From a virus (lineage: Duplodnaviria > Heunggongvirae > Uroviricota > Caudoviricetes), in IMG/VR virus record IMGVR_UViG_2713896769_000015: 17,127 bases of DNA; one strand, written 5' to 3'. Below the pieces are notes generated by a model. That model had not been told where the DNA came from. It saw nothing but the letters and a program-made list of their open reading frames with translations, and made no database searches. The position numbers were made by a program, and so were the translations under genes. Shown piece by piece: positions 2,558 through 15,424 of this stretch (positions are counted from its first letter, which is position 1; each line of letters opens with the position of its first letter).

Positions 2558-5111
<2,554 letters not shown>

Positions 5112-11353: not shown

Positions 11354-11556
11354 AACCTCACTCCCAGCGGACGACGGCGGCGGCTTGTTGTCCCCAGCAC
11401 TGACTCCGCATCATTGATCGCCCGGTTAAGATCATCCAGAGAGGCCGCCGTATATTCAATTCTTCGTCCATCTTTCTGGACAGACACCACCCGTTTACCG
11501 GTTAATAAATCAAGGCGCGCCTGACGCAGCGCCTGCAGTTCAGCGACTGTAACCAT
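11350..11556 (-). CDS. W: Head-tail joining protein (lambda gpW-like)
   Basis: 68 aa, MVTVAELQALRQARLDLLTGKRVVSVQKDGRRIEYTAASLDDLNRAINDAE... parallels lambda gpW (…KRVATVQKDGRRVEFTA…). Overlaps the A stop and the B start. Confidence 0.9.
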   Translation of the reverse strand: MVTVAELQALRQARLDLLTGKRVVSVQKDGRRIEYTAASLDDLNRAINDAESVLGTTSRRRRPLGVRL

Positions 11557-13468
11557 TCACTCCTCCGGACAGCTTCGCTGCCAGTTCTTTCAGGGTTGGC
11601 CGGGTCGTCTCTTCTTCCCGGGATTTTGCCAGTACAGCCAGATCAAGCTGCCAGCGTTGCACGGACACACGTAATGCCGCGTAGGCATACACCAGGCAGT
11701 CCAGCGCTTCGTTACGCCGCTTTTTGTTATCCCACAGCAGACGCATCTTTCCTTTTTCCCACTTCTCCACCAGCTCTTCCGCCACCAGTTGCTGCGCCTC
11801 TGTCTGCGAAAAAATCTCCGGATCATCAGGAAAACGGATGGCATACGACGTGGCTTCATCCGCAGGCGAGGGATCGGCTTTCATACGGGCATAGAGAATT
11901 TCTTTTGCGGTGTCCGTTCCCACTTCACACAGATACACGCCCCGCTGATTGCGGGTTTTTGGCATGGTGATCACCGGCTTGCCATAGACAGATGCGCCTT
12001 TTACCGGCAGCACCCGGAAAACACCGTGTTTTTTTGATCTCTGATAAACAATTTCACCATCGATCCCCCCGGTGTCCCAGCAGACACGGGAAATAGTCAT
12101 TTCGGTGCCATCCGCATGGCGGTATTTTTTGTTGATCGCCGCATCCACACGTAACAGCGTCTCTTCCTCATCAGGACGCCCCATAATGATGATTTTATCC
12201 ACCAGAAAGGCTTCCTCTCCCGGAGCCCATCCCCAGACATACATCTCAAAACGGTTTCGCTGCGAGTCAATGCCCGCCGTCAGATAAACCACCCGGGCAG
12301 GCACCGCCGCCGTGTAACGCACCACCTTATCCATCAGTACCTGGTGATCGAGTTTTTCGCCCACGGCCTCTTCCCAGGTCTCGCCCAGCGTGGTGTTCAC
12401 AAAGGTTTTCAGGCCGTTGGGATCTTTCAGTGCATCCAGCCAGTCATAGACAATCTGTACCCAGGTGGTGAACGGACTGTACGCCGTCCAGATATGGAAC
12501 GTGATGGAGCGCGGCGGCGGAATTTCATCACCCCGGGCGCTGAAAAACGTCAGACCGTCACGGGTCCACATGCCCGTGTTTTCACAGATCCACCGCCCGT
12601 TGCTCTGGTCCAGTTCAGACTGATGGATCACGCAGCCATGATGTTCACAGAGGTAGAAAACACTTTCAGGGCTGTCCTTCTCCCATTTAAGCCCAAAAGG
12701 CGTGGACTCATCGCCAAATTTCAGATACTGCTCCTCCCCACAGTGCGGGCAGGGCACATAAAAACGCATAAAATGCGCCGACTCGTTAGCGGCTTTTTCG
12801 ATCTGGCAGGTGCCTTTGATTTTAGGCGTCGAGCCGCGAATGGATTTTGGCCACACCGACCCCTCAATACGCTTATCCCCCAGCAGGGTTGGCGAGCCCT
12901 CTTTTTCGACATCCGGCTCGAACGAGGAAAGTTCGTCATAGCAGACCACGTCCACGGATTTTTCACGGTAGTTTTTGGCGGCAGCGCCGCCCAGGCACCA
13001 GAAACCGACGCCCGATGAAAAGCGTTTCAGCGTGAGAGTATTGTCACGATGTTTACGACCCAGCCATGGGGAAAGGTCTTTCAGGCATGGCACGTTCCGA
13101 ATCGTCGCCTCCACGTGAGACTTCATAAAATCTTCAGCGGCAGAATCCGTGGGCTGAAAAAGCAGACTGTTTCGGGATTTATGCTCAATAAAATACCCGA
13201 CCACCCCCAGCAACATCTTTGTATAGCCAACACGGGCAGATTTAATCAGATTAACAGTGCGGATCTGATCATTCCCCATGCTGTTCATGATGGCGATCTG
13301 GAATGGCAGCGTTTTCCATTCGCCCTCACCATATGAAGATTCTTTAGGCAGATAATAATTTTGATCAGCCCATTCAACTGGCGTCACCGGCAATGCCCTT
13401 ATCAGGGGCTGTAATGCAGTTGTGACAGCGCTCATCATATTATTCAGTTGTTGCTCTGATATATTCAT
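11540..13468 (-). CDS. A: Terminase large subunit (lambda gpA-like)
   Basis: Preferred start MNISEQQLNN... at 13466-13468, which aligns with the lambda gpA N-terminus; the track ORF starts 19 codons upstream at 13525. Blocks KSARVGYTKMLLGV, GSVWPKSIRGSTPK, FMRFYVPCPHCGEEQYLKFGD, VCWDTGGID and KRRNEALDCLVYAYAALR match lambda gpA. 642 aa. Confidence 0.95.
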   Translation of the reverse strand: MNISEQQLNNMMSAVTTALQPLIRALPVTPVEWADQNYYLPKESSYGEGEWKTLPFQIAIMNSMGNDQIRTVNLIKSARVGYTKMLLGVVGYFIEHKSRNSLLFQPTDSAAEDFMKSHVEATIRNVPCLKDLSPWLGRKHRDNTLTLKRFSSGVGFWCLGGAAAKNYREKSVDVVCYDELSSFEPDVEKEGSPTLLGDKRIEGSVWPKSIRGSTPKIKGTCQIEKAANESAHFMRFYVPCPHCGEEQYLKFGDESTPFGLKWEKDSPESVFYLCEHHGCVIHQSELDQSNGRWICENTGMWTRDGLTFFSARGDEIPPPRSITFHIWTAYSPFTTWVQIVYDWLDALKDPNGLKTFVNTTLGETWEEAVGEKLDHQVLMDKVVRYTAAVPARVVYLTAGIDSQRNRFEMYVWGWAPGEEAFLVDKIIIMGRPDEEETLLRVDAAINKKYRHADGTEMTISRVCWDTGGIDGEIVYQRSKKHGVFRVLPVKGASVYGKPVITMPKTRNQRGVYLCEVGTDTAKEILYARMKADPSPADEATSYAIRFPDDPEIFSQTEAQQLVAEELVEKWEKGKMRLLWDNKKRRNEALDCLVYAYAALRVSVQRWQLDLAVLAKSREEETTRPTLKELAAKLSGGVNGYSR

Positions 13469-13949
13469 CAAGTAAATCCGGTAATTTATCCCCTGCCCGC
13501 GCACACTGATTTGCCCCCTTAGCAATAAGGGTTTTCAGATGGTCAAGATGGCGCGGTGTTAAATCAGGAAACTGTCGCTGCATGGATAAAGGGATGGAAT
13601 CAAGCGTACTGGATAACGCCATTGCCAGCTTACTGAGGGCAAAAATACAGAACCCGGTGTCAATCAGTTTTCCTTTTGACACCTCATTTTTTAACTGCTG
13701 TGTAACAGCCTGTTCTGCTGTCAGTTCCCATCTGGCAATAAGCAATTTTTCCTCATAGTCGTCTTCGCTATCGCCATCAGGCACATCGTTTTTACTTCTT
13801 CTCAGATACGATATGTAAAAATCGCGCCAGGCATCCAGATCCAGTTGCCCTCGCTTATTCGAGACCGGGGCACCCGGTAATTTCTGCAATCTGCGAAGCT
13901 GGCGATCGGTCAGACTTAAATGCCTGGCAACTTCAGTCTGCGTAGCCAC
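13440..13949 (-). CDS. Nu1: Terminase small subunit (Nu1 / phage 21 gp1-like, N-terminal HTH)
   Basis: 169 aa, GTG start at 13947-13949 preceded by gcGAGGtgagga. N-terminal HTH-like EVARHLSLTDRQLRRLQ and a C-terminal part overlapping the start of A by 29 nt. Location immediately downstream of cos, and same size and architecture as lambda Nu1, but the sequence is clearly diverged from lambda. Confidence 0.8.
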   Translation of the reverse strand: MATQTEVARHLSLTDRQLRRLQKLPGAPVSNKRGQLDLDAWRDFYISYLRRSKNDVPDGDSEDDYEEKLLIARWELTAEQAVTQQLKNEVSKGKLIDTGFCIFALSKLAMALSSTLDSIPLSMQRQFPDLTPRHLDHLKTLIAKGANQCARAGDKLPDLLDEYIRATTE

Positions 13950-13989
13950 TCCTCACCTCGCAAAAACTCTCACCTCACAATCACAACAA

Positions 13990-14100
13990 AACCGGTCATG
14001 TCCGGTTTACATGTCTGTTTTTTGTTCATGTCCGGTTCACAGAAGACCTGTTTTTATATTTTTCATATAGTTAACTTGAAGAGAAACCGGACATGGATCC
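13990..14100. promoter_or_regulatory. cosB-like region: three copies of an 11-bp CATGTCCGGTT element (two direct, one inverted), putative terminase small-subunit binding sites
   Basis: catgtccggtt at 13997-14007 and 14027-14037; inverted copy aaccggacatg at 14086-14096. Copy 1 is embedded in the palindrome aaccgg-tcatgt-ccggtt. An AT-rich stretch lies between copies 2 and 3 (14051-14075). Geometry mirrors the R3/R2/R1 arrangement of lambdoid cosB. Confidence 0.6.
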
Positions 14101-14132
14101 CGGAAAATTTTCATAAATAGCGAAAACCCGCG

Positions 14133-14144
14133 AGGTCGCCGCCC
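14133..14144 (-). other. cosN cohesive-end sequence (GGGCGGCGACCT on the minus strand)
   Basis: Plus strand aggtcgccgccc. Reverse complement of 14100-14144 is GGGCGGCGACCTCGCGGGTTTTCGCTATTTATGAAAATTTTCCGG, which I recognise as the first 45 nt of the lambda left end. Confidence 0.85.
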
Positions 14145-14176
14145 CGTAACCTGTCGGATCGCCGGAAAGGACCCGC
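14145..14176 (-). other. cosQ-containing segment (homologue of the last ~32 bp of the lambda right end)
   Basis: cgtaacctgtcggatcgccggaaaggacccgc is the reverse complement of lambda right-end sequence ...GGGTCCTTTCCGGTGATCCGACAGGTTACG with two mismatches, from memory. Confidence 0.6.
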
Positions 14177-14343
14177 AAAATGATAATAATTATCATCTAC
14201 ATGTCACAACGTGCATCTACGCCATCAAACCACGTCAAATAATCAATTATGACGCAGGTATCGTATTAATTGATCTGCGTCAACTTAACGTAAAAACAAC
14301 TTCAGACAATACAAATCAGCGACACTGAATACGGGGCAACCTC

Positions 14344-14538
14344 ATGTCAACGAAGAACAGAACCCGCAGAACAACAACCCGCAACATCCGCTTTCCTAAC
14401 CAAATGATTGAACAAATTAACATCGCTCTTGAGCAAAAAGGGTCTGGGAATTTCTCAGCCTGGGTCATTGAAGCCTGCCGTCGGAGACTAACGTCAGAAA
14501 AGAGAGCATATACATCAATCCAAAGTGATGATGGATGA
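14344..14538 (+). CDS. ylcI: Small DUF3950-type protein (YlcI / YnfO-like), adjacent to cos
   Basis: 64 aa, MSTKNRTRRTTTRNIRFPNQMIEQINIALEQKGSGNFSAWVIEACRRRLTSEKRAY...; basic N-terminus. Sequence and position (between the lysis module and the Nu1 homologue, opposite strand) match what I recall of ylcI in DLP12 and of the equivalent lambda right-end ORF. Confidence 0.7.
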   Translation: MSTKNRTRRTTTRNIRFPNQMIEQINIALEQKGSGNFSAWVIEACRRRLTSEKRAYTSIQSDDG

Positions 14539-14725
14539 ACATCCCGGTTTCTTCCACCATCGCACCGGAAAAGCGACTATGAGGGTAACCCTGCGTCTGT
14601 CAGCACAGTAAAACCCGGTGTGCATCGTTTTTGATTATTCCCGCACACTCACGCAGAAGGAATTCCCCGTCGGGCTACGGTCATGGTTAATGCGGGAATA
14701 CGGCGACGATACAGCGCATAATGTG

Positions 14726-15274
14726 TCAGGCTTGAATACCTTTATCGAATCCCGGTAATAAAAACTGTCCCTGTCTCTCCAGACGTTCCAGCTTTGCAAG
14801 CAATTGAGGTTTTTTCGTTCTCCCCCAGCGATTGAGCAGACGGCCTGACATGCTGGCGACATCCTTCTCTTTCATGTACTCCAGCATTACGGCGTTACGT
14901 TCTGCTTCATAACTTTCGCTGTACTTACGGAGTTCTGCTGACATCCAGTTAAACGCATTGATATAGGCTTCTTTAACAGCATCGGCTTTTGCCCCGTTAA
15001 ATCCCATAACCAGCATAACGAAGCCACTAAAGTCCATGCGGTAGTAAATCTGTTTCTTGTCAAAAATACCTAAGTCATTGATTTTCTCGACGGCCCCAAA
15101 ATGGGTTGTCGAGAATTCCTCAGAACATCTCAAACATTTAATAGCCCTAATCACATGCTGATGGCGTTTACCAAATGCCCTGGCAATCTGGAAGGTGTCA
15201 GTTACCGGTTGACCTTCTGCTGCGGTAACTAACTGGCGAAAGTCGAAGTCATGATTCGCAATTAATTCATTCAT
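14726..15274 (-). CDS. rha: Phage regulatory protein Rha family (pRha domain)
   Basis: MNELIANHDFDFRQLVTAAEGQPVTDTFQIARAFGKRHQHVIRAIKCL...YYRMDFSGFVMLVMGFNGAKADAVKEAYINAFNWM... fits the pRha pattern (GKRH-[DQ]-x-V-[LI]-R, LVMGFxGxKA, FKEAYI). Start taken at ATG 15272-15274; the track ORF extends to a GTG at 15343. Confidence 0.7.
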   Translation of the reverse strand: MNELIANHDFDFRQLVTAAEGQPVTDTFQIARAFGKRHQHVIRAIKCLRCSEEFSTTHFGAVEKINDLGIFDKKQIYYRMDFSGFVMLVMGFNGAKADAVKEAYINAFNWMSAELRKYSESYEAERNAVMLEYMKEKDVASMSGRLLNRWGRTKKPQLLAKLERLERQGQFLLPGFDKGIQA

Positions 15275-15424
15275 GGCGTTGCCTGCTTCTTTGAAATGAA
15301 CCTTTGCCGCACAGGAAACCAGCCCACCGAGGCTCGCCAGCACTAACTGGTATCCTCAAAGGCCCATTCCAAAGGGTCAGGTTCGGTGTTTATTGTGCGC
15401 TGCGGTGCGCGGTGAAATACCGGT

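What the first reader, a model, noticed from the sequence alone, without database searches (positions are those of the whole stretch)
13950..14176. Internal cos site with lambda-identical cosN and a sharp mosaic junction into a different cosB
The minus strand from 14144 to 14100 reads exactly like the first 45 nt of the lambda left end (GGGCGGCGACCTCGCGGGTTTTCGCTATTTATGAAAATTTTCCGG), and 14145-14176 matches the lambda right end. Identity then stops abruptly at 14099/14100, giving way to three CATGTCCGGTT elements and a diverged small terminase subunit. This is the known modular pattern in which cosN and cosQ are shared among lambdoid phages while cosB and the small subunit co-vary as a specificity cassette. 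The contiguous lysis-cos-Nu1 arrangement confirms prophage (integrated, circularly permuted) order.
Basis: partly seen in the sequence, partly recalled or inferred. Interest (0 to 1): 0.45.

Follow-up and report, generated by a model that had tools for sequence, protein, structure and literature searches.

The report
Prophage cos site with non-lambda cosB
This is the DNA-packaging start site of a lambda-like E. coli prophage: the cutting site is identical to lambda's, but the adjacent recognition site and its matching small terminase subunit are of a different type that is common yet has not been characterised experimentally in the papers I could search.

Summary
Read on the minus strand, window 14144->14100 equals lambda nt 1-45 (45/45). 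Window 14145-14176 matches the lambda right end at 30/32, and identity drops to chance at 14099. Three exact CATGTCCGGTT copies exist, plus a fourth overlapping copy with one mismatch.

The region is a complete cos site: cosQ, cosN, a conserved spacer, R3, an IHF-like site, inverted R2 and a third site. It is followed by a 169-aa small terminase (TerS).

In TerS relatives from six enterobacterial genera, the R3 and R2 elements sit at fixed positions, 58 bp apart. Their sequence co-varies with TerS residue 20: Arg goes with G, and Asn/Asp with T.

Against a phage-21-like genome, the head genes are 95% identical. Only cosB, TerS and about the first 30-60 codons of TerL are replaced, so this is a true specificity cassette.

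The same cos and Nu1 pair was aligned to lambda for O157 Sakai prophages Sp4 and Sp14 in 2009, and it occurs in 1168 of 5426 complete E. coli genomes. The sequence is therefore known.

The R-site assignment is new as far as I could find. It suggests a fourth packaging specificity besides lambda, 21 and N15, which is untested.

The parts
14145..14555 (-). Lambda-like right-end block (YlcI/YnfO region through cosQ to the left nick)
   Evidence: 95.9% identity to lambda 48092-48502; 97-99.7% to many lambda-like phages.
14168..14174 (-). cosQ heptamer GGGTCCT, cos positions -30..-24
   Evidence: Read directly from the sequence. Near-invariant in 18 divergent cos regions. Labelled cosQ in Asadulghani 2009 Fig S8.
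14128..14149 (-). cosN. The predicted 12-nt cohesive end GGGCGGCGACCT is 14144->14133.
   Evidence: Identical to lambda. Nicking itself was not tested.
14100..14122 (-). Conserved spacer CGCTATTTATGAAAATTTTCCGG (cos 23-45; the I2-type 'IHF' box of the literature). This is the last stretch identical to lambda.
   Evidence: high information content. TATGAAAATTTTCCG is labelled IHF in Fig S8.
14085..14095 (-). R3-type element CATGTCCGGTT, cos 50-60 (core TGTCCGG at 52-58)
   Evidence: Same position in all enterobacterial relatives.
14061..14073 (+). I1-type IHF-like site TTTCATATAGTTA, cos 72-84 on the bottom strand of the phage orientation
   Evidence: Two mismatches to WATCAANNNNTTR here, which is not above chance in the window alone. 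At the same position, 13 of 17 divergent relatives have 0-2 mismatches, five of them perfect. The best consensus match in 21 starts at 74, and 21's annotated IHF site 2 is at 75-85.
14027..14037 (+). R2-type element, an inverted CATGTCCGGTT, cos 108-118
   Evidence: It lies exactly 58 bp from R3 in all enterobacterial relatives and always carries the same variant as R3.
13997..14007 (+). Third exact copy, inverted like R2, cos 138-148
   Evidence: Present in some relatives, absent in the Salmonella and Citrobacter members, and deleted in L096.
13990..14000 (-). Fourth copy CATGACCGGTT (one mismatch) in R3 orientation, cos 145-155. It overlaps the third copy and forms the palindrome AAACCGG-ACATGA-CCGGTTT. 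Orientation and position are like lambda and 21 R1.
13440..13949 (-). Small terminase subunit TerS, 169 aa, GTG start; coordinates include the stop codon
   Evidence: Pfam Phage_Nu1 matches aa 49-150 (67.9 bits). hhalign to lambda Nu1 gives 99.7% probability over aa 5-166. Annotated as terminase small subunit in RefSeq genomes.
13785..13949 (-). TerS N-terminal DNA-binding domain (aa 1-55), predicted winged helix-turn-helix. The recognition helix is aa 15-22 and includes Arg20.
   Evidence: AF2 model with pLDDT 85. Foldseek hits to MerR-type wHTH domains include 1J9I, the gpNu1 DBD (TMq 0.63), and 6HN7_B (TMq 0.70).
11540..13468 (-). Large terminase subunit TerL, 642 aa. The first ~30-60 residues belong to the cassette, and the rest is 21-like.
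   Evidence: Pfam GpA_ATPase and GpA_nuclease. Identity to 21-like TerL per 20 residues runs 30, 50, 70, then 90-100%. Nucleotide similarity resumes at 13386.

Best explanation
The region is the packaging site (cos) of a lambda-like prophage. Its termination and cutting parts (cosQ, cosN and the spacer up to cos bp 45) are the common lambda/21 type. Its initiation part (cosB) and the cognate small terminase belong to a separate recognition class.

Proposed mechanism, by analogy with lambda. A dimer of the TerS N-terminal winged helix-turn-helix domains binds R3 (cos 50-60) and the inverted R2 (108-118). IHF bending at the I1-type site (72-84) brings these two sites together. The third, palindromic site (138-155) is accessory. 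The TerS C-terminus holds the matching TerL N-terminus, which positions the TerL nuclease to nick cosN at 14144/14145 and 12 nt away on the other strand.

The recognition core is T-[G/T]-TCCGGTT. Arg20 of the recognition helix is inferred to read the G at cos bp 53.

cosB, TerS and about the first 30-60 TerL residues form an exchangeable cassette inside an otherwise 21-like head module. The conserved cos core is the recombination joint to a lambda-like right arm.

Shown here: sequence identities, element positions, conservation, co-variation, fold prediction and cassette boundaries. Inferred: binding, bending, nicking, and a specificity distinct from lambda, 21 and N15.
For: - Lambda identity and the break at 14099/14100.
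- Repeats exceed chance.
- Conservation islands: in 18 divergent cos regions from relatives in six enterobacterial genera (Escherichia, Klebsiella, Salmonella, Citrobacter and Enterobacter among them), conservation is confined to cosQ, the nick region, the spacer, R3, TAAC-N4-TTGA and R2.
- Fixed geometry: the R3-R2 offset is exactly 58 bp, and both sites carry the same variant in each genome (CATGTCC, CATTTCC or CACTTCC).
- Protein-DNA co-variation: TerS residue 20 = Arg goes with G at motif position 4, and Asn/Asp/Lys/Ser/Thr go with T. This holds without exception in about 30 unique protein/site types once two mis-picked sites are corrected. A second, distant Arg lineage (L106) has TGTCCGTGTCCGGTT where its neighbours have GTTCCGGTTCCGG.
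- Parallel in lambda and 21: hhalign places Arg20 opposite lambda Asn21 and 21 Arg21. Lambda R cores read TTTCCG and 21 cores read TGTCGG, the same Arg/G versus Asn/T pairing.
- Fold: the N-terminal domain is predicted as a wHTH with residue 20 in helix 2.
- Architecture: R3(+), R2(-) and a (+) site at 147-153 mirror lambda (55, 112-118, 157) and 21 (55, 112-117, 155).
- IHF-type site at the I1 position.
- Cassette boundaries.
- Evidence of function: PhiR12 phages carrying this cosB and TerS are deposited as phage genomes with K-12 or E. coli C as host. Sakai Sp4 DNA, with an identical cos and a disrupted nu1, is packaged, which the authors attribute to Sp14 terminase.
Against: - No binding, bending or cleavage data exist for this class, and the virion ends were not determined.
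- The IHF match in this window has two mismatches and is not significant by itself.
- Foldseek E-values for the small domain are weak (0.28 or worse), and Pfam's Nu1 model does not cover the N-terminal 48 residues.
- The Arg/G co-variation rests on perhaps two or three independent lineages. The enterobacterial Arg20 proteins may form one clade, with N-terminal-domain identities of 66-72% against 57-67% for the others.
- Published genetics for lambda and 21 emphasise residues 20 and 24 rather than 21.
- The whole cosB sits 3 bp closer to cosN than in lambda and 21, although that spacing is reported to tolerate only 1-2 bp in lambda. The docking geometry must therefore differ somewhat.
Confidence: 0.82

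Rival explanations
1. The cosB is not a separate specificity but a functional variant of the phage 21 specificity. The R sequence CATGTCCGGTT resembles 21's CATGTCGGnCC, so 21-type and this terminase would cross-package.
For: 21 R cores read TGTCGG and the window's read TGTCCGG. The R3/R2/R1 architecture is the same. TerL is 92% identical to a 21-like TerL. Both proteins have Arg at the aligned helix position.
Against: The cores differ by an inserted C and lie 3 bp nearer cosN (52-58 versus 55-60). The TerS proteins are about 30% identical overall and 10-30% identical per 20-residue block over the first 80 aligned residues. The TerS C-terminus and TerL N-terminus also differ, so heterologous subunits may not pair. 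Lambda and 21 discriminate more than 1000-fold on smaller differences.
Confidence: 0.1
2. The cos site is a relic. In this prophage the packaging module is inactive, and the repeats persist only through recent common descent.
For: Many EHEC lambdoid prophages are defective. The O26 11368 copy has an IS in the protease gene downstream. Most E. coli copies are 95-100% identical, so within-species conservation says little.
Against: In this window TerS, TerL, W, portal, C, D and E are uninterrupted ORFs of the expected lengths. R3 and R2 are conserved as islands across genera where the flanks have diverged completely. Phages with this module are deposited as phage isolates, and Sp4 DNA is packaged.
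Confidence: 0.1
3. The CATGTCCGGTT repeats bind some other factor, such as a regulator of late or terminase expression, or form a DNA or RNA structure, rather than binding TerS.
For: They lie in the 5' leader of the TerS gene. The third and fourth copies form a palindrome. In distant relatives the site sits only 20-30 nt before the start codon.
Against: Their position is fixed relative to cosN, not to the start codon, which lies 147-195 nt from cos bp 1 in different members. They co-vary with a residue in the TerS recognition helix. The architecture copies lambda and 21 cosB. No Rfam family matches here.
Confidence: 0.04
4. The cos belongs to a satellite-type (PICI-like) strategy. The lambda-type cosQ and cosN plus a foreign cosB would be read by a hijacker protein paired with a helper TerS.
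For: PICIs show exactly this pattern of conserved cosQ and cosN with a different cosB.
Against: A cognate TerS and a full set of head genes follow directly. The ORFs between lysis and cos that gave family matches are Rha-family and YlcI/YnfO-type, and no Rpp-type protein was identified among the ORFs scanned. PICI cosBs lack I1, R2 and R1, whereas this one has them.
Confidence: 0.01

Closest known systems
Phage lambda cos (cosQ-cosN-cosB with R3, I1, R2, R1) and gpNu1/gpA terminase
   Same: - The 12-nt cohesive end, the flanks to bp 45 and the cosQ heptamer are identical.
- The order is the same: R3(+), IHF site, R2(-), third site.
- The R3-R2 core spacing is about the same (64 versus 63 bp, outer edges).
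- TerS has the same three-part plan. Its C-terminal ~100 aa are 46% identical to Nu1, and hhalign gives 99.7% probability over the whole length.
- The R core TTTCCG of lambda recurs as T[G/T]TCCGG.
   Different: - The R consensus differs (CATGTCCGGTT versus CGTTTCCtTTCT).
- The whole cosB lies 3 bp nearer cosN.
- The TerS N-terminal domain is not detected by BLAST or by Pfam's Nu1 model, and its wing is shorter.
- The best third site is inverted.
- TerL is only 65% identical.
Phage 21 cos and gp1/gp2 (the classic alternative specificity)
   Same: - Head genes from TerL codon ~28 onward are 95% identical at nucleotide level to a 21-like phage.
- The replaced block is the same one that distinguishes lambda from 21: cosB, TerS and the TerL N-terminus.
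- The R core TGTC(C)GG is similar, and Arg occupies the aligned helix position.
   Different: - TerS is about 30% identical overall.
- The R sites have an extra C and a 3-bp shift.
- There is no nucleotide similarity across cosB, TerS and the first ~27 TerL codons.
N15 / Monarch specificity (third documented class; simple versus complex cosB)
   Same: It is another lambda-like cos whose recognition helix and R3 both diverged. This family likewise contains both 'complex' members (enterobacterial: R3-I1-R2, with or without a third site) and 'simple' members (Pseudomonas-, Aeromonas- and Azospirillum-type: one tandem site just upstream of TerS).
   Different: The R sequences are unrelated (N15 R3 is GAGGTTGTTGTT), and no rR2 inside the TerS gene was looked for or seen.
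O157:H7 Sakai prophages Sp4 and Sp14 (Asadulghani et al. 2009, Fig S8)
   Same: They have essentially the same cos and Nu1. The published alignment shows the identical cosQ, cosN and spacer and the MATQTEVARHLSLTDRQLRRLQKLPGAP... protein. Sp4 DNA is packaged.
   Different: The paper's alignment stops at GGGATCCATGT. It does not describe cosB, R sites or specificity.

Membership tests
Lambda-like cos site (sensu Feiss: 12-base 5' cohesive ends related to lambda's, with cosQ, cosN and cosB) | Cohesive-end sequence with strong identity to lambda's GGGCGGCGACCT, flanked by conserved CG at the nick positions | tested here: met
   12/12 identity, and 45/45 for bp 1-45. Actual nicking was not tested.
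Lambda-like cos site (sensu Feiss: 12-base 5' cohesive ends related to lambda's, with cosQ, cosN and cosB) | 7-bp cosQ (GGGTCCT) at the lambda distance upstream of cosN | tested here: met
   14174->14168, which is cos -30..-24, the same as in lambda.
Lambda-like cos site (sensu Feiss: 12-base 5' cohesive ends related to lambda's, with cosQ, cosN and cosB) | Terminase actually generates cohesive ends here | not testable with these tools
   This needs virion DNA end mapping. The indirect support is packaging of Sp4 DNA.
Complex cosB (R3, I1, inverted R2, R1) | R3 about 50-65 bp from the left end, and an inverted R2 about 60 bp further on | tested here: met
   R3 at 50-60 and R2 at 108-118. The offset is 58 bp in all enterobacterial relatives.
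Complex cosB (R3, I1, inverted R2, R1) | IHF site between R3 and R2 | tested here: inconclusive
   The site has two mismatches in the window, which is chance level by itself. The position is conserved, with 0-1 mismatch sites in most relatives, and it coincides with the 21 and lambda I1 region.
Complex cosB (R3, I1, inverted R2, R1) | R1 in the same orientation as R3 | tested here: inconclusive
   A one-mismatch forward copy lies at 145-155, but the exact third copy (138-148) is inverted. Several relatives have only the inverted copy, or none.
Lambda packaging specificity | R sites matching CGTTTCCtTTCT, and a Nu1 recognition helix like IRTIQNWQEQ | tested here: not met
   No similarity after bp 45. 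The helix is DRQLRRLQK.
Phage 21 packaging specificity | R sites CATGTCGGnCC at 53-64, 109-119 and 153-163, and a gp1 recognition helix PRTIERWQSQ | tested here: not met
   The core is similar but has one extra base and a 3-bp shift. The TerS N-terminus is 10-30% identical. Cross-packaging was not tested.
Pfam PF07471 Phage_Nu1 | Score above the gathering threshold (30 bits) | tested here: met
   67.9 bits, but only profile positions 62-163 (protein aa 49-150). The DNA-binding part of the model is not matched.
gpNu1-type winged HTH DNA-binding domain | beta-alpha1-turn-alpha2-wing-alpha3 fold superimposable on 1J9I | tested here: inconclusive
   AF2 model with pLDDT 85. TM is 0.56-0.63 to 1J9I and 0.59-0.70 to 6HN7_B, and MerR-type wHTHs top the list, but Foldseek E is 0.28 or worse. 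hhalign aligns the helices.
Terminase specificity cassette (TerS C-terminus pairs with TerL N-terminus) | The TerL N-terminal segment co-varies with TerS while the rest of TerL does not | tested here: met
   Identity to 21-like TerL is 30, 50 and 70% in the first three 20-residue blocks, then 90-100%. The nucleotide break is at 13386.

The most novel reading that the evidence does not exclude
This cosB/TerS pair is a fourth, experimentally uncharacterised packaging specificity among lambda-like cos phages. About one fifth of complete E. coli genomes carry it, often in several copies and in EHEC prophages. Its recognition uses a simple switch shared with lambda and 21: Arg at the helix position aligned with lambda residue 21 reads G, and Asn/Asp goes with T, at the base equivalent to lambda bp 56. 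If so, packaging compatibility between co-resident prophages could be predicted from sequence and re-engineered.
Probability: 0.45. Interest if true: 0.5.

Novelty: new member of a known kind. Interest (0 to 1): 0.35.

Why it matters
Packaging specificity decides which co-resident prophages, defective prophages and satellites can be mobilised by which terminase. Only three specificities (lambda, 21, N15) are documented among lambda-like cos phages, and the field's own review calls this diversity 'modest'.

A well-defined extra class would let one predict prophage-prophage packaging interactions in EHEC. It has identifiable R sites, a candidate one-residue/one-base switch and clear cassette borders, and it is present in O157, O26, O103, O145 and other lineages. 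The Sp4/Sp14 case is one such interaction.

It also gives a natural test set for how TerS reads DNA. The mechanism itself is the textbook one, so this refines known biology and reveals no new kind of system.

Tried and rejected
- The scan of one-genome-per-species contigs returned a single distant locus, an Azospirillum MAG.
- The first IMG/VR scan returned only 99%-identical loci. Diversity had to be reached through individual distant proteins.
- phmmer of TerS against PDB sequences found nothing meaningful.
- Foldseek with the full-length model (pLDDT 69) was uninformative. A domain-only model was needed.
- Pfam on the N-terminal 64 aa gave only a sub-threshold Sigma70_r3 hit.
- The IHF consensus scan of the window alone equals chance, 120 matches against 121 expected. 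The IHF assignment therefore rests on comparative position only.
- A literature search for the motif string found only unrelated papers.
- Rfam found nothing in the cos region.
- I considered a PICI-type cos, an assembly chimera and chance repeats, and rejected them. The exact 1041-bp configuration occurs at 100% identity in three genomes, and 711 genomes hold a place covering at least 80% of it.
- I considered reading TTTCCGG at cos 39-45 as a further R site and rejected it, because that stretch is not conserved as CCGGTT in relatives.

Full report
**1. The observation**

I read the region on the minus strand and aligned it to the joined ends of lambda NC_001416.
- Window 14144->14100 equals lambda nt 1-45 (45/45).
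- The 32 nt upstream (14176->14145) match the lambda right end at 30/32.
- Lambda-like sequence continues to 14555 (95.9% to the reference; up to 99.7% to other lambda-like phages).
- Beyond the junction, 14099->14055 matches lambda at 8/45, which is chance.
- CATGTCCGGTT occurs exactly three times. A fourth copy, CATGACCGGTT, overlaps the third. None of 200 shuffles reached four matches.

Relative to the packaging direction, the copies read one forward (R3 position), two inverted, and one imperfect forward.

**2. What surrounds it**

All genes lie on the minus strand in this order:
- class II holin, lysozyme and Rz;
- a Rha-family protein and a YlcI/YnfO-type ORF;
- cos;
- a 169-aa Nu1-type TerS (13949->13440);
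- a 642-aa gpA-type TerL (13468->11540);
- W, portal, protease/scaffold, D and E.

The ORFs in the head module are uninterrupted. Matches in complete E. coli genomes are almost all chromosomal, so an internal cos in prophage order is the right reading.

**3. The small subunit**

- Pfam's Nu1 model matches only aa 49-150.
- tblastn finds lambda, 21, N15 and phi80 only through the C-terminal ~100 residues, at 40-47% identity.
- A profile-profile comparison aligns the whole protein to lambda Nu1 at 99.7% probability. It puts DRQLRRLQK opposite lambda's IRTIQNWQE.
- An AlphaFold model of residues 1-59 (pLDDT 85) has beta, helix 4-10, helix 15-22, a wing, and helix 38-54.
- Its best structural neighbours are MerR-type winged HTH domains. 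These include the gpNu1 DNA-binding domain 1J9I and a chain of the RppC-TerS(lambda) complex 6HN7. TM scores are 0.6-0.7 but E-values are weak.

I take the N-terminal domain to be a strongly diverged gpNu1-type wHTH.

**4. Are the repeats the TerS sites?**

I collected TerS homologues at 35-99% identity. I then fetched their upstream DNA from assemblies and IMG/VR and obtained 75 unique cos regions that align in register.

Among 18 representatives less than 88% identical, conservation is confined to islands:
- cosQ GGGTCCTTTCC;
- the nick region;
- CGCTATTTATGAAAATTTTC;
- R3 (ATGTCCGGTT, cos 51-60);
- TAAC-N4-TTGA (72-82);
- R2 (AACCGGACAT, 108-117).

R3 and R2 are always 58 bp apart, and within each genome they carry the same variant: CATGTCC, CATTTCC or CACTTCC.

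The variant tracks TerS residue 20. Arg goes with G at motif position 4 (cos bp 53). Asn, Asp, Lys, Ser or Thr go with T. There is no exception among about 30 unique protein/site types, after correcting two cases where the script picked a non-R3 site.

A distant Arg-bearing protein (L106) has TGTCCGTGTCCGGTT where its Asn/Lys relatives have GTTCCGGTTCCGG, which is a second lineage.

The aligned residue is Asn21 in lambda and Arg21 in 21. Their R cores read TTTCCG and TGTCGG. The same pairing therefore recurs at the base corresponding to lambda/21 bp 56, which is known to be critical for discrimination.

This is the strongest evidence that the elements are the TerS recognition sites.

**5. Architecture compared with lambda and 21**

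| Element | Window | Lambda | Phage 21 |
|---|---|---|---|
| R3 core (+) | 52-58 | 55-61 | 55-60 |
| R2 core (-) | 110-116 | 112-118 | 112-117 |
| Third site, inverted (-) | 140-146 | none | none |
| Third site, forward (+) | 147-153 | 157-163 | 155-160 |

The plan is the same, but the whole cosB sits about 3 bp nearer cosN.

At the I1 position (72-84, bottom strand) the window has a two-mismatch IHF consensus. That is not significant alone. However, 13 of 17 divergent relatives have a 0-2-mismatch site at exactly this position, and five of these are perfect. Phage 21's annotated IHF site 2 is at 75-85.

The third site is variable. It is absent from the Salmonella and Citrobacter members and inverted in others. 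One IMG/VR locus has lost the 30 bp between the two inverted copies. This fits the accessory role reported for lambda R1.

**6. The mosaic structure**

Against lambda, everything left of the junction is divergent: TerL is 68% identical at nucleotide level and 65% at amino-acid level.

Against a 21-like phage (PhiR63_2) the picture is a clean cassette:
- 94.9% identity from 13386 through the head genes to 5753;
- 90.8% identity over cosQ-cosN;
- nothing in between, so cosB, TerS and the first ~27 TerL codons are replaced;
- TerL identity per 20 residues runs 30, 50, 70, then 90-100%.

This is the unit expected from the known pairing of the TerS C-terminus with TerL.

The right edge of the cassette, 14099/14100, is the edge of a cos core that many phages share. 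PhiR12 phages have the same cosB with two cosN-flank differences (bp 18 and 24) and unrelated DNA left of cosQ. In my sample the same cosB is joined to at least 11 different contexts left of cosQ, and the bp 18/24 variants are reassorted. The crossover that produced this window therefore probably lay somewhere within the conserved core, not precisely at 14099/14100.

**7. What is already known**

The N15 paper lists three documented specificities (lambda, 21, N15) and describes complex and simple cosBs.

Asadulghani et al. 2009 aligned the cos and Nu1 of O157 Sakai Sp4 and Sp14 with lambda. Their Fig S8 shows this very sequence and protein, ending at GGGATCCATGT. They also reported that Sp4 DNA is packaged, presumably by Sp14 terminase.

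They did not define cosB. I found no paper in the searchable library that mentions the R motif.

The cosB/TerS N-terminal class occurs in 1168 of 5426 complete E. coli genomes, with up to four copies per genome. The exact lambda-joined configuration occurs in 711 genomes.

**8. Verdict**

The finding is correct and its interpretation is supported. It is a further member of a well-understood system, not a new kind of system.

Three points appear not to have been described:
- the assignment of T[G/T]TCCGGTT as the R sites of a widespread, probably distinct packaging specificity;
- its conserved R3-I1-R2 geometry, shifted by 3 bp;
- the Arg/G versus Asn/T co-variation that parallels lambda and 21.

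Binding, bending, cleavage and specificity remain inferred.

Noticed in passing
window 2707-2829 (+): A full-length match to the Rfam isrC Hfq-binding sRNA (150 bits; gathering threshold 39). It lies on the strand opposite to the tail and head genes, inside the prophage's late region.
   Followed up: no
L158-L162 (IMG/VR), cos positions -8..+22: These loci have the same cosB class and an 88%-identical TerS, joined to a different nick region (ACACCGGGGGTCGTAGGACGCGCAAAAACGCG instead of GTTACGGGGCGGCGACCTCGCGGGTTTTCG). The cohesive-end sequence can therefore change independently of cosB.
   Followed up: no
L096 (IMG/VR), cos ~108-125: A natural 30-bp deletion between the two inverted AACCGGACATG copies. 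It leaves R3, one inverted copy and the forward half-palindrome. This looks like unequal crossing-over between R sites, as has been proposed for the origin of the simple N15 cosB.
   Followed up: partly
L005, L006, L008, L105-L113, L145-L153 (Pseudomonas, Aeromonas, Azospirillum and metagenome relatives): Distant TerS homologues (30-45% identity) keep cosQ GGGTCCT and a spacer-like box. They have only one tandem site (GTTCCGGTTCCGG), 20-30 nt before the TerS start, with no inverted partner. This is a 'simple' cosB within the same recognition family.
   Followed up: partly
window 14100-14106 (lambda nt 39-47): Lambda itself reads TTTCCGGTT at nt 39-47, a perfect match to the T-variant R core of this family. 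In the window the match is cut at the junction (TTTCCGG|GATCC). This may be coincidence, or a trace of how the two cosB types relate.
   Followed up: no
L004 (phage 21) 122-129: Phage 21 has an extra GTGTCCGA between R2 and R1. This is a fourth R-like core, and unlike 21's other R sites it contains the CC of the window's motif.
   Followed up: no
window 14316-15343 (-): A Rha-family/ORF11CD3 protein (205 aa) and small YlcI/YnfO-type ORFs sit between the lysis genes and cos. This is where lambda has bor and lambdap78/79. This segment is itself a mosaic: parts are 82-99% similar to lambda, PhiR12 or 21-like phages.
   Followed up: no
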